Assembly (NCBI GenBank): GCA_903843045.1
Contig: CAIMOJ010000046.1
Span: forward strand, 95,073-159,072
Length of the DNA: 64,000 nt
Origin: Candidatus Uhrbacteria bacterium
Lineage (GTDB): Bacteria; Patescibacteriota; Patescibacteriia; UBA9934; GWF2-40-263
Direction: 5' to 3'
Of the stretch, positions 1 to 60,412 are shown piece after piece. The translations under genes were made by a program, and so were the position numbers. Below the pieces are notes generated by a model. It saw only the letters and a list, made by a program, of their open reading frames with translations. It made no database searches and was not told the origin of the DNA. Within the stretch, counting starts at the first letter, position 1. The number at the start of each line of letters is the position of its first letter.

Positions 1-40
1 GAATATCACAAAATCGGCCGAATAGCAGCTTGGGGATAAC

Positions 41-220
41 TCACAATCTGGCCATCCGCAGTTTGTCGGCGACATCCTTCGGATCGTCGAGCTTGATCGA
101 CTTCACGACGATCTCGACGCGCACCGGCTTGCCGTCTTGAACCACGAGACGCAGCTCCCCGTAGCCCATCGTTTCGATGAGCTGGACGAGGTGTTTCCAT
201 TGTGGCGTGTCTGGGATCAT
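41..220 (-). CDS. DUF2292/YezD-like small protein (59 aa), translationally coupled to TerL (ATGA overlap)
   Basis: Hand-translated minus-strand ORF MIPDTPQWKHLVQLIETMGYGELRLVVQDGKPVRVEIVVKSIKLDDPKDVADKLRMARL. It is just under the 60-aa ORF-track cutoff. The GELRLVVQDGKPVRVE pattern resembles the YezD/DUF2292 family. The listed alternative ORF 6..200 is Arg-rich and looks like a shadow frame. Confidence 0.5.
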   Translation of the reverse strand: MIPDTPQWKHLVQLIETMGYGELRLVVQDGKPVRVEIVVKSIKLDDPKDVADKLRMARL

Positions 221-1665
221 AGCTGGATGATTTGGGGCGTCTCGCCTTGAATCGCGAGGCTGACGGCGTGAACGAAGGCGTCGACCATGTCGTCGTGCTG
301 GCCGTGTGGGAAGGCGAGCAGCTCGGCGAAGAACTCCTCCGGCAGATCGTTTGCGAACTCGACCGTTCCGTTCTCGATGAACGGGAGCACCTGCAAGAAC
401 CGCCGCACCTTGTCTTTGTCGACTGTGATCTCCGACGTCGGGACGTAGGTGTTCTCCGATGGGCCGAGCCGGTCGATCTCCTGCTTGAGCGCCTTCTGGT
501 AGGCCACGGTTTCGATCCCGAACGTCTGGTAGTTGAACGTGCGATGTTTGCGCAGGATCATCCGAACCTGATCCGGGAACGACAGGTGGCCGCGCTCGAT
601 ATCCACGACCGTAAGCCGTCCGGTCTCGATGTTCCGCCAGACCGTTGCCACCGCCGTATAGTCGGCCGTCTCTTTCTCGCTGATGGCCGGATCAGCCGCT
701 CCGAAGGCATCCACGACCTGCGCGAGATTGCCTTCTTCATCCGTTCGCGTCGGCAGCGGCTTCGGCCTGCGTATGATCCAGCTTTCTTTCACTAGCCGCG
801 CCGCCGCAGTGATCGGGATGTTCATATATTCCTGATCGAACACGAGGGCGCCCACCGCGCGACGTTCTTCCGCAAGCCTCTTGAGCGGCCAGAATTGCGG
901 CCAGATGCTTTTACCGTCCTCGATCGCGGAACGCTGGATGCCGCCGAACGTGTTGTAAAACTTCACGAGCGCGGCGTCCGGGTGCAGGATCGTTCCGATC
1001 ATCTTCACCCTGCCGCGCTCTTTATCGCGGGACGGTATGATCACGCCAAAAATCCACCGATCGAGTTTGTCTCGCAATTCCGCGCTGCGCACTGCCTCAT
1101 CATTCTCCACGTCATCAATCACGATCTTGGTCGGCCTGCTCCCCTTGATGTTCACGCCGCGTCCCTTACGCGCTCCACGGGCTACGACGTTGACGCCGTT
1201 TGTCGTCTCGAAATGCTTGTTCGTCCATTTGCGGGACAGGTTTGAATCCGGCGGAACGATGTTGCCATAGACCTTCCGCAGCGCCGCGTTATTTTCAAGT
1301 TCGAACTTGATGCTCTCAAAATGAAACTGCGCTTCGGTAAGCGTGCACGATATGTACAAGATCACCGGCTCAAGCTTGTAGACGATGTCGTGGATGGTGT
1401 CGATCTTCTCCCACGTTGTTTTGGCGTGCCCGCGAGGAAATACGATCGCACTATCAGTCTGTCGCGCGAGTTCACGAATAAGGTCCGCATGGCAATCAGG
1501 GACTTCACCGGCGATCAGATGCGGGAAAAAATATCTACCGAAGATCGGCAGATTGTGCTTCGGCATCAGGCTTTGCCTGATCCACGTCGCCTTTTCCTGA
1601 TCCGGCTCCCTCAGCCTTGCGAGAGCCGCCATCCACGCGTTTATTTTCTTCGTCGTCTTTGTCAT
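217..1665 (-). CDS. Phage terminase large subunit (TerL)
   Basis: 482 aa. Walker A-like VFPRGHAKTT, the ATPase-domain acidic motif KIVIDDVEND, and a C-terminal nuclease DDMVDAF motif typical of TerL. Start uncertain (M1, M12 or M33) because the N-terminus overlaps the upstream TerS-like ORF. Confidence 0.85.
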   Translation of the reverse strand: MTKTTKKINAWMAALARLREPDQEKATWIRQSLMPKHNLPIFGRYFFPHLIAGEVPDCHADLIRELARQTDSAIVFPRGHAKTTWEKIDTIHDIVYKLEPVILYISCTLTEAQFHFESIKFELENNAALRKVYGNIVPPDSNLSRKWTNKHFETTNGVNVVARGARKGRGVNIKGSRPTKIVIDDVENDEAVRSAELRDKLDRWIFGVIIPSRDKERGRVKMIGTILHPDAALVKFYNTFGGIQRSAIEDGKSIWPQFWPLKRLAEERRAVGALVFDQEYMNIPITAAARLVKESWIIRRPKPLPTRTDEEGNLAQVVDAFGAADPAISEKETADYTAVATVWRNIETGRLTVVDIERGHLSFPDQVRMILRKHRTFNYQTFGIETVAYQKALKQEIDRLGPSENTYVPTSEITVDKDKVRRFLQVLPFIENGTVEFANDLPEEFFAELLAFPHGQHDDMVDAFVHAVSLAIQGETPQIIQL

Positions 1666-2071
1666 GGTCGTCGTTGATAAATGGGACCATCAATTCAAGC
1701 GCGCGCTTGCTGAGCGAACAGTCGATCTCCCCCTCGAACTCGAAGGTCTGGTGCTGCGTCGGTTTTCCTATGGCTTGATCGAGAAGCCACTCGATGGACT
1801 TTCCGTCGGGGGACTTCTTATAAACCCTGATCTCGTTGGTCTCGGGATCGGTGACCTGTACGAAGTGCCCCTTAGCCAGCGCTATCTTCGCCTCATACAA
1901 ATCGTCGAAGTGATCCGCGACCTTCTGCATCAGCTGGTTGCGCAACTCCAAACGGATGCGATTCTCTCGGCTGACCGACCCTTTAGGCCTGCCACCATTC
2001 TTCGCATTCTCGCGGTTGGCTTTTATTTGCGCTTCAGTTGCCATAATTGGGATTAAAATCCAATAACCCAA
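1535..2071 (-). CDS. Terminase small subunit-like / HTH DNA-binding protein
   Basis: Probable start at MATEAQIKANRENAKNGGRPKG (ATG at 2044). The NGGRPKG HTH motif is common in TerS and Hin-like proteins, and the gene sits immediately upstream of TerL. The acidic C-terminus overlaps the TerL start by roughly 35-130 nt. Confidence 0.5.
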   Translation of the reverse strand: MGYWILIPIMATEAQIKANRENAKNGGRPKGSVSRENRIRLELRNQLMQKVADHFDDLYEAKIALAKGHFVQVTDPETNEIRVYKKSPDGKSIEWLLDQAIGKPTQHQTFEFEGEIDCSLSKRALELMVPFINDDHDKDDEENKRVDGGSRKAEGAGSGKGDVDQAKPDAEAQSADLR

Positions 2072-2072
2072 T

Positions 2073-3251
2073 TCAAGTGATCATTTCGGCCTTTTTTCCG
2101 GTGTATTTCTCCCACCGTGCAATGATCACGTCGCAGTATCCGGGGTCGATCTCCATCATCCGGCACTTGCGTCCTGCTTGTTCGCAGGCAATCAGGGTGG
2201 TGCCGGAACCGCCGAACAGGTCTAGGACGATGTCACCGGGCACAGACGAGCCGTTAAGCGCCTTCACGACGAGCTGGATCGGCTTCATGGTCGGGTGAAG
2301 ATCGTTGACTGATGGACGCTTCAGCTGCCACACATCGCCTTGATCGCGGTCGCCGCACCAATAGTGCTCGGCACCCTCTTTCCAGCCGTAGAGAATCGGC
2401 TCGTACTGACGCTGATAATCCGCCCGGCCGAGCGTGAAGCGATCCTTCGCCCAGATGATCGTCGTCGACCAATGGCCTCCCAAGCGCAGCCATGCGGACT
2501 GTAACGGACCCCATTCCTTACAGCTCATGCAGATATACGACGCTCCGGCGTTGAATTGGAGGATGTTCTTGATGAAGCCGTCGACGAAGATCTGCCAATC
2601 GCCGTCACTCATTTTGTCGTTAACGATTTTCCGATCCTTGCCCCAGCGCGGGTTGTCATGATTCCCGTAGTCGACGTTGTAAGGCGGATCAGTGAAGACC
2701 ATCCCCGCGCGATCATCGGCCATAAGTCGCTTCACGTCTGCCTCGTCGACGGCGTCCCCGCAGATGAGGGTGTGCTCCCCAAGCCTGTAAAGATCGCCAC
2801 GCTTCGATTTCGGTTCCGCTGGCGGCTCCCCGTCGAAATCATCCTCCTCGCCCTCGATAGCCTTCTTGAGAATCTTGGCTATTTCGGACGGATCGAAACC
2901 GGACAACTTTCGTTCTTCTTCGCTCATTTCTTTCAGCAACGCCACGAGCAGCGCCTCGTCCCATTCGCCCTGAATCCTGTTCAGGGCGAGGTTCAGCGCC
3001 TTCTCTTTCTCCTTCGGGATATCAACCCTGATGACAGGCACCTCTTCGATCCCGAGACGCTTCGCGGCAGCGACCCGCTGGTGTCCGCCGATGATCGTGT
3101 CGTCTTGGTTGATGACGACCGGCTCTACACAGCCGTACTGCTCGAGGCTTCGCATCAGCTTCTCCATCTCGCGGTCGGCCATCTTGCGCGGATTATAAGA
3201 CGCCGGTTTCAGTTCCGTGATTTTCTTGTACTCGATTTGTATCTGATTCAT
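2073..3251 (-). CDS. ParB-like nuclease domain fused to N6-adenine/N4-cytosine DNA methyltransferase
   Basis: Start at MNQIQIEYKKI (ATG at 3251), not the upstream M of the listed ORF. N-terminal ParB/Srx fold (VINQDDTIIGGHQRVAAAKRLG). C-terminal MTase motifs FTDPPYN (motif IV) and LDLFGGSGTTLIACE (SAM binding). This is a typical phage ParB-MTase fusion. Confidence 0.8.
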   Translation of the reverse strand: MNQIQIEYKKITELKPASYNPRKMADREMEKLMRSLEQYGCVEPVVINQDDTIIGGHQRVAAAKRLGIEEVPVIRVDIPKEKEKALNLALNRIQGEWDEALLVALLKEMSEEERKLSGFDPSEIAKILKKAIEGEEDDFDGEPPAEPKSKRGDLYRLGEHTLICGDAVDEADVKRLMADDRAGMVFTDPPYNVDYGNHDNPRWGKDRKIVNDKMSDGDWQIFVDGFIKNILQFNAGASYICMSCKEWGPLQSAWLRLGGHWSTTIIWAKDRFTLGRADYQRQYEPILYGWKEGAEHYWCGDRDQGDVWQLKRPSVNDLHPTMKPIQLVVKALNGSSVPGDIVLDLFGGSGTTLIACEQAGRKCRMMEIDPGYCDVIIARWEKYTGKKAEMIT

Positions 3252-3758
3252 AAAAATTGAAATTGACAACAGAACACCCTTACCGCTATCCTTGAAGCAA
3301 TCGACTCGCTTCGTGATACCAGTTTCGAGGGAGACCCAGGCAAGGGTCTCTTTTCTATATCTCGTTCCCTCTGGAATGCGACCGGGTTGACGGTGTTCAT
3401 GGTTGGTTGCAAGAACCGCAGAGCCAACGATCAGAGCCCGGATTTTTCCCATGGACAGAGGAAGCGAGATTGTCTTCGGCAGCGTTACACCGTTGCCCCC
3501 ATCCAAGGCGACGGAACCTAGAGAGTCCTAGGGGATTTACACTTGCCATTTAGCGATTTGTTTTCCGCAGCCACGCGGTATCGTCGCAGTTTTACGCCCA
3601 GCACCTTTCTCCGATACGTCGGGCGACGCCTTTCTTTTTCTGCTTGCCGGTCCTTTGCGGCACGCCCTCCCACGAACGAGACACAGACCGGCCATTTAGG
3701 ACGATCTGTATTCGGTTCACAGGAGCGCGCACCGGGGCGATTGCTCGCCCGGCGGCGG

Positions 3759-3962
3759 TCAGGACAACTCTTCGATGGCTTCAAGTATGGTTTCGAGCTC
3801 TTTGAATTCGCGCTCGATCTGGTTTTGAACCACCCTTGCCATCCACTTGAGCGACCTGATCTGCCCTTCCTTGCGTTCGCGCATCTCGATCAGGTTCTGG
3901 AGCTGCTGCTCCAGCGTAATCGGCACGACCCGCACTTTGGGCTTGCGCTCATTTGTAAACAT
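3759..3962 (-). CDS. Small coiled-coil protein (67 aa), phage module
   Basis: Strong SD (AGGAGG, 5-nt spacer) before the ATG at 3962. Lies directly downstream of the Sak4-like gene. High heptad/charge content. Confidence 0.45.
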   Translation of the reverse strand: MFTNERKPKVRVVPITLEQQLQNLIEMRERKEGQIRSLKWMARVVQNQIEREFKELETILEAIEELS

Positions 3963-3977
3963 AGGCTCCTCCTAGCG

Positions 3978-5069
3978 TTAGGCTTTACTCATCGAGGCAG
4001 CCGCCTCTGCGAGTTTCTTCTCCACGAACTCGTGCATCTTGTCGATGCCGCCTTCGAGTAACTTAGGATTCTTTCCGGTGATCTCGGTCCAGCTCGGCGT
4101 TGCGAATGCAAACTCGAGCGCGGCGATCTTGTTCTGCTTCATTTCCGCCGTCTGGCCGGGCCACACCTTCGTGAGATAGGCCTCGATCTTTTCAAGGGCG
4201 ATGTCGCGGCGCTTAAGATAGTCGCGCTTGTCGTCCTCCGTTTGAACGAGAGCCGATGCGTCCGCTTCCGCGACGGTAGACCGCTTCATCGGTTCGGAGA
4301 GAATGACCTCCATCGCCGGTTTGAATTGCTCGTAGGTCGGGTTCTCGAAGGACTTGCCATCGAGAAGCGTCGAGCGGTCTTTGATGATCACCGCGCGGCG
4401 CGAGACCTTCTTGATGTCGCCTCCCTCCATTTCCTGAATGCGCTCCATGAGGACCAGAAGGTCAGGCTCGTAAGCGGTTTCGCCTTCCACCTTCATTTTC
4501 ACGCCCGACTTGTAGATTTCGCGCTTGCCGGTTTCTTCGTTGATCTCGTTGTCATACTCGAAGCCAGCGCGGCCAGTCATGATGATGTGGTACGGATCGC
4601 GGACGAAGGGGTCGGAAAACTCCGCCTTCCACGTCGGCTTGATCACGCCCCAGTCCTGAAACTCGAGCCGTGTTCGGTTTTTCTTTTTCTTGTACGCCTC
4701 CGTGAAGTTTTCCCAGATGTGGCTGATCGAATCGACCAGCAGTACGTCGGAAAAACCATCGCGACAGCGTTTCATCGTCTCGGTGAGATCTGCGAGGCTG
4801 CGGCTTTCCTTCAAAACCGCCTCGATCCCATGCTCCGCGAACAGTGGTTTCAAGAACTTGGCTGACATTTCCGTATCGAAGATGACGATTGGCTTCGTCG
4901 AACCGATACGTTTGTGGAGCCCCACAGCGACAAGCGCGGCAGTGTAGGTTTTGCCCGTTCCGGCGAAGCCTTCGAACGCGGCTTTGAAGTACGGTTTTGT
5001 GTTCCCGATCGGGCTGAAGAAGTCGTCGAAGTTGTTTTTGTCGTAGGTCGTCGTTGGTTTGGTTGTCAT
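3978..5069 (-). CDS. Sak4-like RecA-family ATPase (phage recombination/replication AAA domain)
   Basis: 363 aa. Walker A GFAGTGKTYTAALVAV and Walker B VLLVDSISHIW. SD GAGAAAGGA before the ATG. Typical phage single-strand-annealing/recombination-module ATPase. Confidence 0.75.
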   Translation of the reverse strand: MTTKPTTTYDKNNFDDFFSPIGNTKPYFKAAFEGFAGTGKTYTAALVAVGLHKRIGSTKPIVIFDTEMSAKFLKPLFAEHGIEAVLKESRSLADLTETMKRCRDGFSDVLLVDSISHIWENFTEAYKKKKNRTRLEFQDWGVIKPTWKAEFSDPFVRDPYHIIMTGRAGFEYDNEINEETGKREIYKSGVKMKVEGETAYEPDLLVLMERIQEMEGGDIKKVSRRAVIIKDRSTLLDGKSFENPTYEQFKPAMEVILSEPMKRSTVAEADASALVQTEDDKRDYLKRRDIALEKIEAYLTKVWPGQTAEMKQNKIAALEFAFATPSWTEITGKNPKLLEGGIDKMHEFVEKKLAEAAASMSKA

Positions 5070-5299
5070 ATCCTTTCTCGCCTTTCAATGGTGAATAAGC
5101 CTTGGTGGACGGTTCCTCGGCCTCGCGGCAGAGTTCCTTTTCCACCTCGATGTCGTACGGTTCGATCGAACCGCCGAGCGGGTAATCCGCGCTCGGCTCC
5201 TCATGTCCTTTGTCCATATTTCTCCTGTCAGGTTAATTAAACCCCCCGTCTCCTTTTGGCTGGAGCAGCCTTTCGACCTTTAACGGGCTGTGGATAACG

Positions 5300-5330
5300 A
5301 AAAAGCTCGCTTTTTAAGCGAGCTTCTCGT
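5300..5330. terminator. Bidirectional intrinsic terminator downstream of secA
   Basis: Hairpin AAGCTCGC-TTTTTA-AGCGAGCTT flanked by A/T runs, 25 nt past the secA stop on the minus strand. Confidence 0.6.
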
Positions 5331-5355
5331 GGTCTGATTTGCGATTATTTATCCC

Positions 5356-8055
<2,700 letters not shown>

Positions 8056-49228: not shown

Positions 49229-50644
49229 ATGGCGACATCCCACGCGGACCACGAGGTCTGGCAGAAAGAGCAGAATTTCATCTCGCAAAAGCGCAAGGAG
49301 AACCGAGAGCTGTTCGCGTCGTCGGACAAGGGCGCGTTCGATCTGTATGATCGAATCGGCATCACGTCGCATCCGCCGCAGCTGCCGAAGGGGTACGTGA
49401 AATATTCGCCGCTCGACTTCATCGTCGAGGAAATCCGTCCGGACGGAACGCTCATGACCGTCGACGGCCAGCCCGCCGTGCCGGAGACGCCCGACGGCGA
49501 GGGGACGATTTACGCGGATCTCACCAAGCTTGGCATCTCGACGCTCGACGCGGTCCAGCGCATGACCGACGTGCTTGGGGTTCCCCAGGACAAGATCGGC
49601 TACGCGGGAATCAAGGACGCGGTCGCGCTTACGGCGCAGCGAATCAGCGTCCGCGGAGGGTCGCTTGAGGCCGTGAAGAATCTCGCGATCACCGGCTGCC
49701 AGTTTCGACAGGTGGTCGACGGCAAGGGCGTGATCTCGACCGGCAACCTGAAGGGGAATCGGTTCACCCTTCTCATCCGCACGGAAGGCGAGCCCGACAA
49801 GGAGGCGTTCGCCGCGGCGATCGAGCTGGTGAAGACGCGGGGCGTGATGAACTACTACGGCACGCAGCGCTTCGGCACGCCGCGGTTTCTCGCCCACCTG
49901 TTCGGCGCGCACATCATGCGCGGCGACCTCGAATCGCTCATCAAGGCGTACCTCATGCAGCCGAGCCCGTACGAGCTCCCGTTCTACGCCAACATCCGGG
50001 CCGAGGCGGCCGCGGCGTATGGCGACTTTGCAAAGATGCAGACGATCATGGGAGTGCTCCCCTACTCGTTCCGCTACGAGCTCCAGATGCTCGAGGAGCT
50101 CGTCAAGAACCCGACGGGCTTCGAGGCGGCCATGAACCGCACGCAAAAGCAGGCGGACCTCTGGGCCCGCGCCTACGCCAGCTATCTCACCAACCTCATC
50201 CTCGCCGACGCGGAAAAAAACGGAACCAAGCTCCCGGACCGCATCCCGCTCCTCATCACGCAGGAACCGGAGGCGAAGCAGTTTTACGCGTCGTGGCTCA
50301 AACAGCACGGAACGGAGAGGTACATGGAGAACCTGAGAAAGTACCGGTTCATCAACGTGGGAAAGAACCAGACCATCGAGCCCGTCATCCGCCCGACGGT
50401 CCATGATTACAAGTTCGTCCCCGAGGGAATCGTCATCTCGTTCGACCTTCCGAAGGGCGCCTACGCGACAACGATCCTGATGTACCTGTTCGACTCCGTC
50501 AGCGGAACGCCGATTCCGGAATGGATGAACACGGCCGAGGTCGACACCAAGGAACTCCTCGGCACCGGCTCGCTCCGCCACGTCCGCGAACAATTTGCCG
50601 GGGAGATCGTTTCGGCGATGGCGAACAAGACGGACGACGAGTAG
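49229..50644 (+). CDS. truD: tRNA pseudouridine(13) synthase TruD
   Basis: 471 aa with catalytic-Asp motif GIKDAVALTAQRIS and NYYGTQRFG. Extended -10 TGgTAGAAT upstream. Confidence 0.88.
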   Translation: MATSHADHEVWQKEQNFISQKRKENRELFASSDKGAFDLYDRIGITSHPPQLPKGYVKYSPLDFIVEEIRPDGTLMTVDGQPAVPETPDGEGTIYADLTKLGISTLDAVQRMTDVLGVPQDKIGYAGIKDAVALTAQRISVRGGSLEAVKNLAITGCQFRQVVDGKGVISTGNLKGNRFTLLIRTEGEPDKEAFAAAIELVKTRGVMNYYGTQRFGTPRFLAHLFGAHIMRGDLESLIKAYLMQPSPYELPFYANIRAEAAAAYGDFAKMQTIMGVLPYSFRYELQMLEELVKNPTGFEAAMNRTQKQADLWARAYASYLTNLILADAEKNGTKLPDRIPLLITQEPEAKQFYASWLKQHGTERYMENLRKYRFINVGKNQTIEPVIRPTVHDYKFVPEGIVISFDLPKGAYATTILMYLFDSVSGTPIPEWMNTAEVDTKELLGTGSLRHVREQFAGEIVSAMANKTDDE

Positions 50645-58900: not shown

Positions 58901-59173
58901 AAATCCCGGGGTGCTGTGGCCGTCGAACACGGCCGTAAGCCGGGAGACGACGCTCGCGGAAACGGTCCGCGCGAGCCGCTCGTCCTTGATCCCCGCCGAC
59001 TGCATGGCGGCAAGAACGGAGCGGTATAGCTTTCCCGCGTCGAACGACTGCTCGGAACCGTCGCGTTTTTTCAGGGCCTTGAGCGACGTAACAAATTCCC
59101 AGACGGCATCGGAGACGCCCTGGGCCGGAGCGATCGTCGGACGAACGGACGTAGCAACGAGGGGTTCGGACAT
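55964..59173 (-). CDS. nrdJ: Adenosylcobalamin-dependent ribonucleotide reductase (class II, NrdJ)
   Basis: 1069 aa. Class II RNR motifs: the thiyl-radical Cys loop around NPCSE and the B12-binding region. C-terminal Cys-rich zinc ribbon CDTCGSMMVRNAACYKCLNCGS. No intein seen. Confidence 0.93.
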   Translation of the reverse strand: MSEPLVATSVRPTIAPAQGVSDAVWEFVTSLKALKKRDGSEQSFDAGKLYRSVLAAMQSAGIKDERLARTVSASVVSRLTAVFDGHSTPGFSDVREAVNLTFIDHNLSHAAKRYLSFRTVEARRAKQPTFGHGISVGRYYTKPGMHPYDQIEWERRDARITNEKGATVFEQLAVEVPKTWTQTATNIVVSKYFRGKVGAPDREFSVKQLVSRVAVTISNWGRNEAYFQTAEDADVFEAELTHLLANQMAAFNSPVWFNVGVNPHPQCSACFINSVQDDMRSILNLAVTEGMLFKGGSGAGSNLSKLRSRQEYMGGSNGKASGPVSFMKGLDAFAGVIKSGGKTRRAAKMVILNADHPDIMEFITCKLEEEKKAWALMDAGYDGSMDGAAYSSIYFQNANNSVRVTDDFMFAVEADGDWTTHEVTTGKPSLTYKAREVMRAAAEATWLCGDPGMQYDTTVNKWHTCKNTDRINASNPCSEYMFLDDTACNLASLNLMKYRKVVNGEQVFDVDSFKKANEIIITAMEIVVGSSSYPTPAIEQNSFDYRPLGIGYANLGALLMSFGLPYDSEEGRNLAATITALQSGHSYFQSSKIAEKIGPFAGFKKNEAPCLEVMRMHRDAAYQITTSGVPSDILFEARKAWDNVVSHASVHGLRNAQISVLAPTGTIGFLMDCDTTGIEPDIALVKYKWLVGGGMMKIVNQTVPEGLHRLGYTETEIREILEYIDKADTIEGAPHIRAEHLPVFDCAFKAAQGTRTIQYMGHVRMMAAVQPFISGAISKTVNMPHEATVEDIEKVYMEGWKLGLKAIAIYRDGSKRQQALTTSKEKDAKKQNAEEVAKAVETVEAPKPVAAAVVTDEYKAKRRRLPDERRAITHKFSVGNHEGYITVGLYDDGTPGEIFITMAKEGSVISGLMDAFAASISVGLQYGVPLQVFVNKYVHMRFEPSGYTTNPNIRIAKSIVDYIFRWMAMKFLSVEAQRAVGINVVEDVVVDEMKELEGKLHGSDAVTSVPNAQIDLFAAAPKAATKAPSLTGTFDNHSDAPACDTCGSMMVRNAACYKCLNCGSTSGCS

Positions 59174-59228
59174 AGGAACGAAATGAAGGGAAAAATGTCG
59201 GATAAAAAAGAGGCACGGAACGCCCCAC

Positions 59229-59274
59229 CCACTACATCTAGTGGTATGTCTCTATTTTATGCCACAAGATGTGG
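59229..59274 (-). promoter_or_regulatory. Tandem NrdR-box-like palindromes upstream of nrdJ
   Basis: On the minus strand, box 1 CCACATCTTGTGG and box 2 CCACTAGATGTAGTGG (close to the NrdR consensus aCACTAtATaTAGTGt). Centre-to-centre spacing about 31.5 bp. TAAAAT -10-like element between the boxes. Box 2 lies 56 nt upstream of the ATG. Confidence 0.45.
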
Positions 59275-59301
59275 GGTTGCAAGGGTCGGTTATCCACACG
59301 A

Positions 59302-59868
59302 TCAAAACCCCAGCGTTAGGTTGATCGCCTGCTTCTGGGCGGGTTTCTGGGCGAAGTCCACGGGGATCGCCTTACGCCCCCCAAGCCGGTCCTCGTAGGC
59401 CAAAGCGCCATATTTCAAGCCGTATTCGTACACGCCCTTGGTTACCCGGACGTCGTCGAGGCAATACTTCTTGATCTTCTCGATTTCCCCCTGCTGGTAC
59501 CACTCCACGGCCTGCAGCCCGTGGCCGCTCTTCCCCACCCCGAGGCAGGTCTGCGCCACGTGGTCGAGCTTCAGCCGGAACCCGATGGACTTCTTGATTT
59601 CCTCCAGGATATCAAGCTGCGGGAGCTGGAATAGGTCGCCCGGATAGTAGTTATTCAATATCGGAATGTCGAATCCCTTGGAATTGTACCCGATCATCCG
59701 CCCGCCGTGCTCCAGCCGCGGCCAGAGCTTCGGCAGCTCCGCCTCCGTATAGGCCACATACTCGTCCGTCTCATAAAAATACACGCCGACGATCGACGCG
59801 CGCATCAACGAATAGTCCGCTCCCGCGGCGGTGGTTGTCTCGATGTCGAAGACGATCTCGTTGCTCAT
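59302..59868 (-). CDS. DEDDh 3'-5' exonuclease (DnaQ/RNase T-like)
   Basis: Start at MSNEIVFDIETTT (ATG 59868), an Exo I motif. 188 aa. Confidence 0.75.
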   Translation of the reverse strand: MSNEIVFDIETTTAAGADYSLMRASIVGVYFYETDEYVAYTEAELPKLWPRLEHGGRMIGYNSKGFDIPILNNYYPGDLFQLPQLDILEEIKKSIGFRLKLDHVAQTCLGVGKSGHGLQAVEWYQQGEIEKIKKYCLDDVRVTKGVYEYGLKYGALAYEDRLGGRKAIPVDFAQKPAQKQAINLTLGF

Positions 59869-59869
59869 A

Positions 59870-60412
59870 TTACAGTTCGTATAGGAATACCGTCTCGCTG
59901 CCAATCTTTTCTCTCCCGGTCTCTTTCAGCGTCGGAAACGGGAAGGTGCGCGAAACGACTCTCGTTCGGGCAGGATACCGTTTTTTCAGGATTGGCTCAA
60001 GGCGGGCATTGAGCTCGGGAAAGAGGTAGGAAAAAATAACGTCGGCATCGGGGAGATCAACCTTGAGCATGCTGCCACGCGCAAACGTCGCCGTTTCCGA
60101 CAGACCGAGAGAGCGCGCGCGCAGATTCGAAAACCAGTACAGCGACCACTGCGTCTCGATCCCGTGGCCGGTCGCCCCGAAGTCGCGCGCCGCGTCGATG
60201 ACGGTCGATCCGTCCCCGCTCCCCGCGTCGAGCATCCGTTCGCCCGGCTTCAGCCCGGCCAGTTGCAGCATCCTCTTCGTTTTCCACCGCGGCGTCCGAA
60301 CCCAGGGAACGGACGTGAAGGCGACGAGGTGCCAGTGAATCATGAACAGCATCGCGGCCAGCAGGATCAGCTGAATCAGAAGGATGAGGAACAGCGCGAT
60401 GGATTGCGGCAT
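59870..60412 (-). CDS. Membrane-anchored class I SAM-dependent methyltransferase (paralog of 51530-52066)
   Basis: N-terminal TM, VPWVRT, LDAGSGDGSTVID and PGARVVS, aligning with the other copy at about 35-40% identity. Confidence 0.65.
   Translation of the reverse strand: MPQSIALFLILLIQLILLAAMLFMIHWHLVAFTSVPWVRTPRWKTKRMLQLAGLKPGERMLDAGSGDGSTVIDAARDFGATGHGIETQWSLYWFSNLRARSLGLSETATFARGSMLKVDLPDADVIFSYLFPELNARLEPILKKRYPARTRVVSRTFPFPTLKETGREKIGSETVFLYEL

What the first reader, a model, noticed from the sequence alone, without database searches (positions are those of the whole stretch)
1..5069. Phage-derived packaging/recombination module at the window edge, adjacent to secA
Co-directional minus-strand genes: Sak4-like RecA-family ATPase, a small SD-driven protein, a 500-nt non-coding gap, a ParB-nuclease/DNA-methyltransferase fusion, TerS-like HTH protein, terminase large subunit, then a YezD/DUF2292-like small protein coupled by an ATGA overlap. 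This is the canonical recombination-to-packaging order of a temperate phage or phage-inducible island. The window starts inside the module, so the extent, integrase and att sites are not visible. TerS and TerL overlap unusually (35-130 nt depending on start choice).
Basis: partly seen in the sequence, partly recalled or inferred. Interest (0 to 1): 0.55.

Follow-up and report, generated by a model that had tools for sequence, protein, structure and literature searches.

The report
Prophage inserted in secA of Uhrbacteria
The flagged genes are one end of a tailed prophage of roughly 33 kb (only about 15.6 kb of it was read) that sits in the last codons of the essential secA gene of a tiny "candidate phyla radiation" bacterium (Candidatus Uhrbacteria), is present in some cells and absent in otherwise identical ones, and rebuilds the end of secA as it inserts; it is a well-resolved but not fundamentally new kind of element.

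Summary
Window 1-5382 is the right arm of an integrated tailed prophage.

- **Structural genes:** A 100%-identical contig (L006) extends 9.96 kb past the window edge. It carries a portal-MuF fusion, prohead protease, HK97 capsid, connectors, tail tube and tape measure.
- **Host:** Candidatus Uhrbacteria (CPR); the nearest named SecA is 97% identical.
- **Ends:** attB, the near junction and the far junction were all recovered. A 14-bp perfect repeat, AAGTATAAGAAATG (20 bp with one mismatch), lies in the last codons of secA. The phage arm re-supplies Cys-His-Gly-X-stop plus a terminator.
- **Polymorphism:** Occupied and empty alleles co-occur in the same metagenomes, with SecA identical except for its last residue (A versus V).
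- **Second host:** A 92%-identical phage end occupies the same secA site where SecA is only 68% identical.
- **Refinements:**
  - TerL starts at 1665, so the terS/terL overlap is 131 nt. The overlapped TerS tail is unconstrained.
  - ParB-methyltransferase starts at 3251.
  - The 507-nt gap is truly non-coding but conserved. It holds a ~112-nt element whose fold recurs in a distant phage.
- **Not verified:** "TerS" rests on position and purifying selection only. The integrase, lysis and lysogeny genes lie in about 18 kb I could not reach.

Rating: new member of a known kind.

The parts
41..220 (-). DUF2292/YezD-like 59-aa protein, start overlaps the TerL stop (ATGA)
   Evidence: Pfam PF10055 E=6.9e-8, 32.4 bits against a cut-off of 22. 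Sequence read. The same protein follows TerL in 14 contigs.
217..1665 (-). Terminase large subunit, 482 aa; true start is the ATG at 1665
   Evidence: PHROG 38 at 1e-75, Terminase_6C, TIGR01630. N-terminal residues 9-33 are conserved in distant homologues. Changes at 1654, 1618 and 1588 are synonymous in this frame.
1535..2044 (-). 169-aa protein in the small-terminase position. Its last 43 codons (1535-1665) overlap terL and appear unconstrained.
   Evidence: No hit in Pfam, PHROGs, NCBIfam or GenBank phages. The AF2 model has pLDDT 54 and is unusable. 19 of 25 changes against L047 are synonymous in the body; 0 of 5 are synonymous in the overlap. A 39%-identical homologue sits in the same position in L012.
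2073..3251 (-). ParB_N nuclease-like domain fused to an N6/N4 DNA methyltransferase, 392 aa
   Evidence: Pfam PF02195 + PF01555; PHROG 498 at 2.8e-140; NCBIfam adenine-methyltransferase hits below their curated cut-offs. Homologues sit upstream of terS/terL in L012, L015, L016 and L017.
3252..3758 (-). Conserved non-coding region (507 nt) upstream of the ParB-MTase/terS/terL operon. It includes a long imperfect hairpin at 3659-3733.
   Evidence: Indels of 1-4 nt among window, L047 and L049. Identity is 87-98%, against 85-90% in the neighbouring ORF. RNA fold z=-3.6 on the gene strand and -2.25 on the antisense strand. Consensus fold (RNAalifold): 1 compensatory, 12 one-sided and about 11 broken pairs, which is inconclusive. 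No Rfam match.
3359..3470 (-). ~112-nt element inside the gap whose fold recurs in a distant phage
   Evidence: The blocks GGCTCTGATCGT and CACCGTCAACC were found together only here, in close variants and in L012 5999-6112. Independent MFE folds give the same architecture: an outer stem of unrelated sequence, and a CCGGG/CCCGG helix that is CCAGG/CCTGG in L012.
3263..3356 (+). Antisense promoter-like site (TTGACA-18-TATCCT, 3263-3292), two hairpins (3294-3312, 3331-3350) and a T-run. Possibly a ~60-nt antisense RNA.
   Evidence: Promoter scan. Hairpins and T-run read from the sequence. All of it is invariant in L047 and L049. Consensus match only; function inferred.
3759..3962 (-). 67-aa coiled-coil-like protein with an AGGAGG ribosome-binding site
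   Evidence: No family. The core KEGQIRSLKWMARV is conserved in L047 and L049. Synonymous/non-synonymous codon changes are 11/9 and 8/14, so constraint is weak.
3978..5069 (-). AAA_24 (RecA-fold, Sak4-type) ATPase, 363 aa; probable recombination protein
   Evidence: Pfam PF13479 at 33.8 bits against a cut-off of 27; PHROG 1366 at 1.8e-40; Sak4 PHROG 124 at 3.9e-9. It is 37% identical over 91% of its length to Cronobacter phage phiES15 gp07, which lies between gam and xis-int.
5158..5197 (.). Two adjacent palindromes upstream of the ATPase gene: a 16-nt perfect palindrome CGGTTCGATCGAACCG, and 8-nt arms separated by 9 nt. Likely an operator or other protein-binding site.
   Evidence: The stems are conserved in the host-2 copy, and the differences fall in the loop or spacer.
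5249..5298 (-). 50-nt block nearly invariant between the two phage copies, next to att
   Evidence: window against L046; coordinates. Function inferred: integrase arm site or promoter.
5300..5325 (-). Phage-supplied intrinsic terminator for secA (10-bp stem plus T-run)
   Evidence: It is absent from the empty site, where the next gene starts 13 nt after secA.
5363..5382 (-). Attachment-site repeat at the near junction: 14-bp perfect core at 5369-5382 and a 20-bp repeat with one mismatch. Bases 5356-5368 (codons C-H-G-A-stop of secA) are phage DNA.
   Evidence: Comparison of the window, the empty site (L040, L041) and the far junction (L043 299-318). The sequence is unique in the window, with 0 expected by chance.
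5356..8055 (-). Host secA (899 aa), the integration target
   Evidence: Pfam domains. P0001 (occupied) and P0002 (empty) are identical at 898 of 899 residues and differ only in the last residue, A against V.

Best explanation
Window 1-5382 is the right-hand arm of a temperate, HK97-type, long-tailed phage integrated site-specifically into the 3' end of secA of a Candidatus Uhrbacteria (Patescibacteria/CPR) bacterium.

Shown:
- Read on the gene strand, the order is: att core; phage-borne end of secA plus terminator; a conserved block and palindromes; AAA_24 recombination ATPase; 67-aa protein; 507-nt conserved non-coding region; ParB-methyltransferase; a small protein in the TerS position; TerL; DUF2292. 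Beyond the window it continues with portal-MuF, protease, capsid, connectors, tube and tape measure.
- The crossover lay within the 14-bp identity AAGTATAAGAAATG. The near junction carries the phage variants and the far junction carries the host variants.
- The phage arm restores the last codons of SecA's zinc-binding SEC-C motif.
- The same host genotype exists with and without the element in the same samples.
- A closely related phage end sits at the same site in a much more distant host.

Inferred:
- Total length is about 33 kb.
- Integration is by a tyrosine-type integrase encoded in the unseen far part.
- The phage terminator at one end and an outward-facing promoter at the other end limit polar effects on the split secA operon.
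- The ATPase acts in recombination.
- The non-coding region is a leader or regulatory RNA of the packaging operon.
For: Gene identities.

Structural genes past the window edge: they lie on L006, which is 100% identical over 3389 nt. Gene lengths match those of relatives L044 and L045: portal 727 against 727/731 aa, capsid 386 against 390/398, tape measure 510 against 511/511.

Host: SecA is 97% identical to a protein NCBI names Candidatus Uhrbacteria, and nearly all other named hits are Uhrbacteria (the rest Patescibacteria or Parcubacteria).

Empty site: in contigs whose SecA matches at 898 of 899 residues, secA is followed 13 nt later by a 171-aa gene.

Junction sequences:
- attB: GGCAAG-AAGTATAAGAAATGTCACGG-GGTGTAA
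- near junction: ...AAGTATAAGAAATGCCACGG-AGCTTAG
- far junction (L043): GCGCAT-AAGTATAAGAAATGTCACGG-GGTGTAA

The repeat is unique in the window.

Both alleles occur in one sample. In ERZ18647568, L005 and L041 both begin at the branch point that corresponds to window 5423. In ERZ1426536 the gene tables show both states.

In ERZ27313426 the two junctions sit on host contigs of 95.7 kb and 67.6 kb.

Second host: L046 is 99.8% identical to the corresponding part of L050. There SecA (P0013) is 68% identical to ours, the flanking gene order is the same, and the ATPase gene is 92% identical in nucleotides.

Variants at 88-92% nucleotide identity show purifying selection.

G+C is lower than in the host.
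Against: - No integrase, excisionase, repressor or lysis gene was seen. About 18 kb between the tape measure and the far junction could not be fetched. Only the last 298 nt were read: the end of a gene, ...GRPKKRT*, then non-coding DNA.
- The attP-spanning sequence was not found in IMG/VR or in JGI metagenomes. Those collections also lack the phage itself (best TerL 59%).
- Co-occurrence of the two alleles could reflect two strains rather than ongoing excision.
- The host-2 copy has a disrupted ATPase gene.
- Variant L009 shows apparent frameshifts.
- The size of about 33 kb rests on one contig length (33,373 bp) and on the contig lengths of relatives.
Confidence: 0.85

Rival explanations
1. 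A cryptic or defective prophage remnant that can no longer excise or form particles. The presence/absence difference would be old strain variation.
For: Integrase, lysis and lysogeny genes were not seen. No attP sequence was found. The copy in the second host is interrupted in the ATPase gene. L009 has apparent frameshifts in terL, the protease and the tube gene.
Against: Every gene seen in this copy is full length relative to its homologues. Substitutions are mostly synonymous. SecA of occupied and empty hosts is identical except for the phage-supplied last residue. Both att repeats are intact, with host and phage variants segregating as expected for a recent crossover. A near-identical phage end sits in a host with 68%-identical SecA, which implies recent transfer.
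Confidence: 0.12
2. A phage-inducible chromosomal island or satellite that carries only packaging and recombination genes and hijacks a helper phage.
For: Within the window alone, only recombination, methylase and terminase genes are visible.
Against: Contiguous portal, protease, HK97 capsid, connectors, tube and tape measure follow on identical DNA. At least 15 kb was read contiguously and the total is about 33 kb.
Confidence: 0.01
3. A Mu-like transposable phage inserted by transposition. The nearest TerL proteins among isolated phages are those of D3112, DMS3 and MP38, and the portal is fused to a Mu F-like domain.
For: The best GenBank phage TerL hits are Mu-like Pseudomonas phages at about 28% identity. 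Pfam Phage_Mu_F is present on the portal fusion.
Against: The flanks share a 14-20-bp identity with the empty site, rather than showing a short target duplication. The same secA codons are used in two hosts. The gene next to the end is an ATPase, not a repressor or transposase. 28% identity is too weak to infer lifestyle.
Confidence: 0.02
4. An assembly or binning artefact: phage DNA wrongly joined to an Uhrbacteria contig.
For: A 92%-identical phage-only contig (L009) is binned in a MAG labelled Gammaproteobacteria. Assemblies break repeatedly inside the element, at window 1696, 3389, 3910 and 5213.
Against: The secA-phage junction is identical in independent assemblies from several samples and assemblers. 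The other junction was recovered separately and carries the matching repeat. A second host shows the same junction.
Confidence: 0.01

Closest known systems
Temperate tailed phages that integrate into the 3' end of a host gene and carry a replacement for the displaced end (lambdoid phage 21 in icd; many tRNA-targeting phages). From my own knowledge.
   Same: A short identity between the phage and host sites lies inside the end of a conserved gene. The phage arm restores the reading frame (here C-H-G-X-stop of SecA). Direct repeats flank the prophage.
   Different: The target is secA. I found no paper describing secA as a phage attachment site in the searchable library, though absence there is not proof. 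The insertion splits an operon, since the next gene starts 13 nt after secA. The integrase itself was not seen.
Prophages of Patescibacteria/CPR reported from groundwater metagenomes (PMC12911398; PMC12455944)
   Same: A temperate Caudoviricetes element in an ultra-small CPR genome from water or groundwater-type samples. PMC12911398 infers that most phages linked to Patescibacteria are temperate.
   Different: Those surveys rest on automated prediction and linkage. Neither mentions Uhrbacteria or an attachment site. Here attB and both junctions are defined to the base, and both alleles are shown in one population.
Cronobacter phage phiES15 early-left operon (gam, AAA ATPase gp07, small protein, DNA methyltransferase, xis, int, attP)
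   Same: The ATPase is 37% identical over 91% of its length. In both phages it is followed by a small protein and then a methyltransferase, close to the attachment site.
   Different: In phiES15, xis and int lie between the methylase and attP. Here the ATPase is the first gene after att and the methylase is fused to a ParB_N domain. The rest of the two genomes is unrelated.
IMG/VR contig 3300020047_009091 (L012/L053), an uncultivated phage
   Same: ParB-MTase, TerS-position gene, TerL (59%) and portal-MuF (42%) in the same order. A long terS/terL overlap. The shared ~112-nt element lies in a long non-coding stretch upstream of that operon.
   Different: G+C is 49%. No AAA_24 gene lies within 10 kb. 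The early genes are divergent and on the opposite strand. Host unknown.
Mu-like Pseudomonas phages D3112/DMS3/MP38
   Same: Closest TerL among isolated phages; both have a Mu F-type head protein domain.
   Different: Identity is only about 28%. Integration here is site-specific with an att repeat, not transpositional.

Membership tests
Integrated temperate tailed phage (Caudoviricetes prophage) | Large terminase with ATPase and nuclease domains | tested here: met
   PHROG 38 at 1e-75; Terminase_6C at 39.8 bits against a cut-off of 22.6; TIGR01630 at 58.3 against 41.65.
Integrated temperate tailed phage (Caudoviricetes prophage) | Contiguous portal, protease/scaffold, major capsid, connector, tail tube and tape measure genes | tested here: met
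   L006 is 100% identical to window 1-3389. TIGR01537 portal at 148 bits against 112; TIGR01554 HK97 capsid at 114 against 27.5; PHROG hits for protease, adaptor, neck, minor tail protein (phrog_290) and tape measure; Pfam Phage_tube_2 on the 330-aa tube protein in the contig gene table.
Integrated temperate tailed phage (Caudoviricetes prophage) | Flanking direct repeats that match a single copy at the empty site (the two junctions and attB) | tested here: met
   14-bp perfect and 20-bp imperfect repeat at window 5363-5382 and at L043 299-318. A single copy is present in L040 and L041.
Integrated temperate tailed phage (Caudoviricetes prophage) | Presence/absence polymorphism in otherwise identical hosts | tested here: met
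   SecA identical at 898 of 899 residues. Both alleles occur in ERZ18647568 and in ERZ1426536.
Integrated temperate tailed phage (Caudoviricetes prophage) | Integrase (and excisionase) next to an att site | not testable with these tools
   The far ~18 kb could not be fetched. Only 298 nt at the far junction were read. The tape-measure search did not return the exact protein, so I could not walk further along the element.
Integrated temperate tailed phage (Caudoviricetes prophage) | Excised circular or free form (attP) | tested here: inconclusive
   The attP-spanning 28-mer is absent from IMG/VR and JGI contigs. Those collections do not hold this phage at all. Reads from the source samples were not available.
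Phage-inducible chromosomal island / satellite | No capsid and tail genes of its own; small size | tested here: not met
   A full head and tail module is present; more than 15 kb was read contiguously.
Mu-like transposable phage | Near-random insertion with a short target duplication; DDE transposase at the genome end | tested here: not met
   The same secA codons are used in two hosts, with a 14-20-bp phage-host identity. The end gene is an AAA_24 ATPase. The transposase search is incomplete because the far part is unseen.
Sak4-type AAA_24 recombination ATPase | AAA_24 domain with a Walker A motif | tested here: met
   PF13479 at 33.8 bits against a cut-off of 27. GTGKT is present in the sequence.
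Sak4-type AAA_24 recombination ATPase | Best match to characterised Sak4 proteins; single-strand annealing activity | tested here: inconclusive
   The Sak4 PHROG 124 scores only 3.9e-9, against 1.8e-40 for the unnamed PHROG 1366. The protein has about 120 extra C-terminal residues. There is no PDB relative. Its homologue in phiES15 lies between gam and the xis-int genes, which by my reading is where lambda carries bet/exo; this is supportive only. Activity is not testable here.
Small terminase subunit (TerS) | Membership of a TerS family, or a TerS fold | tested here: inconclusive
   No hit in Pfam, PHROGs, NCBIfam or GenBank phages. The AF2 model has pLDDT 54. Support comes only from its position directly upstream of TerL, a homologue in the same place in L012 and purifying selection.
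ParB_N-DNA methyltransferase fusion (PHROG 498) | Both domains in one polypeptide | tested here: met
   PF02195 at 35.2 bits against 26.3; PF01555 at 83.6 against 26.7; PHROG 498 at 2.8e-140.

The most novel reading that the evidence does not exclude
The conserved 507-nt non-coding stretch (3252-3758), and in particular the ~112-nt element at 3359-3470, is a previously undescribed structured RNA. It would act as a leader or regulator (for example an antitermination or translational control element) of the packaging operon, shared by a CPR phage and a distant uncultivated phage. It has no Rfam match. Its fold is kept through an outer stem of unrelated sequence and one compensatory pair.
Probability: 0.3. 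Interest if true: 0.55.

Novelty: new member of a known kind. Interest (0 to 1): 0.42.

Why it matters
Phages of CPR bacteria are known almost only from automated predictions. No CPR phage-host pair of this lineage has been cultivated.

This locus gives a base-resolved example. It shows the host (Uhrbacteria), the empty site, both junctions, and co-existing lysogen and non-lysogen alleles. A near-identical phage end also occurs in a host whose SecA is only 68% identical, which hints at a host range spanning distinct Uhrbacteria.

The target is the end of an essential gene in a roughly 1-Mb genome. The phage repairs that end (the zinc-binding Cys-His of SecA) and brings its own terminator.

The attP, attB and junction sequences can be used directly to quantify lysogeny and induction in existing metagenomes. 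The integrase, once read, could become a site-specific tool for a lineage that has no genetics.

Tried and rejected
- **Walking left beyond L006.** The homology search with it did not return the exact protein; the best hit was 53%. The relatives fetched through it show tail genes followed by a reverse-strand block of small genes, with no integrase domain in what was visible (L044, L045). L051 is too distant to be useful.
- **Far junction from the host side.** This succeeded only for 298 nt (L043). A 10-kb flank merged occupied and empty places in the output.
- **Searches of public collections that found nothing.** The attP 28-mer. The conserved att-proximal block and the secA-end mimic in IMG/VR. 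The ATPase and the tape measure in IMG/VR.
- **Small ORF starting at 5217.** I considered it because its N-terminus looked conserved against L046. I rejected it. The conserved bases are two palindromes, the differences fall in loops and spacers, and the frame runs 221 aa through the ATPase gene.
- **459/477-aa start of ParB-MTase.** Rejected, because frame-breaking indels occur in L049.
- **449-aa TerL start.** Rejected.
- **TerS by structure.** The single-sequence model was too poor to search with.
- **Third host.** The site next to P0006 secA is empty.
- **Covariation in the whole gap.** Three sequences at about 90% identity are too similar to each other to decide.

Full report
**1. What is in the window**

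- DUF2292 (41-220) passes Pfam's cut-off. Its ATG overlaps the TerL stop as ATGA.
- TerL (217-1665) matches PHROG 38 at 1e-75, Terminase_6C and TIGR01630.
- The ParB_N + N6_N4 methyltransferase fusion matches PHROG 498 at 2.8e-140.
- The 363-aa protein (3978-5069) is an AAA_24 ATPase above Pfam's cut-off. Its best PHROG is an unnamed family (1.8e-40), and the Sak4 PHROG scores only 3.9e-9.
- The 67-aa ORF has an AGGAGG ribosome-binding site and no family.
- The ORF in the TerS position has no hit in Pfam, PHROGs, NCBIfam or GenBank phages. A single-sequence AlphaFold model was too poor to use (pLDDT 54).
- G+C is 54-56% here, against about 62% in the remaining 58 kb.

**2. Beyond the window edge**

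Exact-protein look-ups found the same genes on other assemblies.

- Contig L006 (Logan ERR4194647) is 100% identical to window 1-3389 and runs 9,960 nt further.
- It encodes a 727-aa portal fused to a Mu F/SPP1 gp7-type domain, a prohead protease/scaffold, an HK97 major capsid protein, adaptor, neck, a 330-aa tail tube protein and a 510-aa tape measure.
- Their lengths match those of relatives L044 and L045.
- A satellite or island is excluded.

**3. Host**

SecA (5356-8055) is 97% identical to a protein that NCBI names Candidatus Uhrbacteria bacterium. Most of the other named hits are also Uhrbacteria or Patescibacteria. The host is therefore a CPR bacterium.

**4. Empty site and both junctions**

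A SecA identical at 898 of 899 residues (P0002) lies on contigs where secA is followed 13 nt later by a 171-aa gene, with no phage. The only difference is the last residue: V in empty hosts and A in occupied hosts.

DNA of the same-strain empty site (L040, L041) and of the far junction (L043) was recovered through the 171-aa protein.

| Site | Sequence |
|---|---|
| attB | GGCAAG AAGTATAAGAAATGTCACGG GGTGTAAGTGCC |
| Near junction (window 5382 to 5356, minus strand) | AAGTATAAGAAATGCCACGG AGCTTAG |
| Far junction (L043) | ...CCGCGCAT AAGTATAAGAAATGTCACGG GGTGTAAGTGCC |

- The prophage is bounded by a 14-bp perfect repeat (20 bp with one mismatch), and this repeat is unique in the window.
- The phage-type bases sit at the near junction and the host-type bases at the far junction. 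The crossover therefore lay inside the 14-mer.
- The phage arm encodes Cys-His-Gly-Ala-stop, which is the end of SecA's SEC-C zinc motif.
- The phage arm is followed by a 10-bp-stem terminator that the empty site lacks.
- The finding's right limit should therefore be 5382, not 5069.

**5. Population evidence**

- In ERZ18647568, an occupied contig (L005) and an empty contig (L041) both begin at the base corresponding to window 5423. This is what an assembly-graph branch gives when both alleles are present.
- ERZ1426536 also holds both states.
- In ERZ27313426 the two junctions lie on host contigs of 95.7 kb and 67.6 kb.
- Variants of the phage at 88-92% nucleotide identity occur in other samples (L007, L009, L047, L049).
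- A second host carries the same phage end at the same secA codons. Its SecA (P0013) is 68% identical to ours and the flanking gene order is the same. It carries the same conserved block and an ATPase gene 92% identical in nucleotides. That copy is interrupted at codon 224.
- Two other Uhrbacteria, with SecA 97% and 81% identical to ours, have empty sites.

**6.

- **TerL start and the overlap.**
  - TerL residues 9-33 are conserved in distant homologues.
  - Against variant L047, the three changes in TerL codons upstream of the alternative start that are synonymous for TerL are non-synonymous for TerS.
  - In the overlap as a whole, 4 of 5 changes are synonymous for TerL and 0 of 5 for TerS. 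In the TerS body, 19 of 25 are synonymous.
  - So TerL starts at 1665 and the overlap is 131 nt. The overlapped 43-residue TerS tail shows no constraint.
  - Overlaps of 0 to about 170 nt occur across this TerL clade.
- **ParB-MTase start.** It starts at 3251. The longer ORF is broken by indels in L049.
- **The gap.** It is 507 nt, non-coding and somewhat better conserved than the neighbouring ORF.

**7. The non-coding region**

- It folds better than shuffled sequence on the gene strand (z=-3.6) and has no Rfam match.
- With three close sequences, covariation is undecided.
- A ~112-nt element (3359-3470) shares two sequence blocks with a ~700-nt non-coding stretch of a distant phage (L012, TerL 59% identical). 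That stretch is also upstream of the operon holding ParB-MTase, TerS and TerL.
- Independent folds of the two give the same architecture: an outer stem of unrelated sequence, and one G-C to A-U compensatory pair.
- This is suggestive of a structured leader RNA, but two lineages are too few to establish it.
- On the opposite strand there is a promoter-like site and a hairpin followed by a T-run. These could give a short antisense RNA. This rests on consensus matches only.

**8. Mechanism**

Shown:
- Site-specific insertion at a 14-bp identity in the end of secA.
- Restoration of the gene end by the phage arm.
- A complete head and partial tail module.
- Presence/absence polymorphism in the host population.

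Inferred:
- A tyrosine-type integrase in the unseen part.
- A total size of about 33 kb, from a 33,373-bp contig that starts in secA and from relatives' contigs of 28-36 kb.
- Relief of polarity on the split operon. The phage terminator closes secA, and an outward TTGACT-17-TATCCT site 215 nt from the far core points at the 171-aa gene.
- A recombination role for the ATPase. Its homologue in Cronobacter phage phiES15 (37% identical over 91%) lies between gam and xis-int, followed by a small gene and a methylase.

**9. Comparison with what is known**

- Prophages of Patescibacteria have been reported in bulk from groundwater (PMC12911398, PMC12455944). The kind is therefore known.
- I found no paper on an Uhrbacteria prophage or on secA as an attachment site.
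- The closest isolated-phage TerL proteins are Mu-like, at about 28% identity. Integration here is plainly not transpositional.

**10. Limits**

- About 18 kb of the element was not read.
- No reads were available to test excision.
- The TerS function is unverified.
- The RNA reading rests on two lineages.

**Verdict**

This is a new member of a known kind, of moderate interest.

Noticed in passing
window 49858-49952 (-): ARAGORN calls a 95-nt tRNA-Ile(GAT). The Rfam tRNA model does not report it, and it lies inside long ORFs on both strands. It is probably a false positive, or else an intron-containing tRNA.
   Followed up: no
window 59001-60000: G+C dips locally to 0.566, against about 0.62-0.66 on either side. 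This could be another acquired segment.
   Followed up: no
L009 (GTDB MAG contig CAYYII010000007.1): A 13.5-kb phage-only contig, 92% identical to this prophage, is binned in a MAG labelled Gammaproteobacteria. It shows apparent frameshifts in terL, the protease and the tube gene. The likely causes are mis-binning and co-assembly errors.
   Followed up: partly
L046 3713-3839; L050 14059-14194: In the second host, the ATPase gene is cut at codon 224 by unrelated DNA that starts a new ORF (MYPRIEQAIKDQILEEIKNGSKVAET...). Two independent contigs end about 130 nt later, as expected for a multi-copy insertion sequence.
   Followed up: partly
L046 2747-3010: The second-host copy carries an extra 87-aa ORF between att and the ATPase gene. 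It has no Pfam or PHROG match.
   Followed up: partly
L043 1-298 (far end of the prophage, outside the window): This stretch holds the end of a gene (...VKNVYRWYQYGVGEISAGKPGRPKKRT*), then a TTGACT-17-TATCCT site facing the host, then about 190 nt that fold with z=-3.8. There is no Rfam match.
   Followed up: partly
window 1533-1553 (-): A terminator-like hairpin plus T-run lies exactly at the TerS stop codon, inside terL. It could be a chance match or an attenuator between terS and the rest of the operon.
   Followed up: no
L044 1431-3715: The closest sizeable relative (53-76% amino-acid identity) has three extra genes (161, 159 and 428 aa, no Pfam hit) between the portal-MuF gene and the protease. 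This looks like a cargo or moron slot in this phage group.
   Followed up: no
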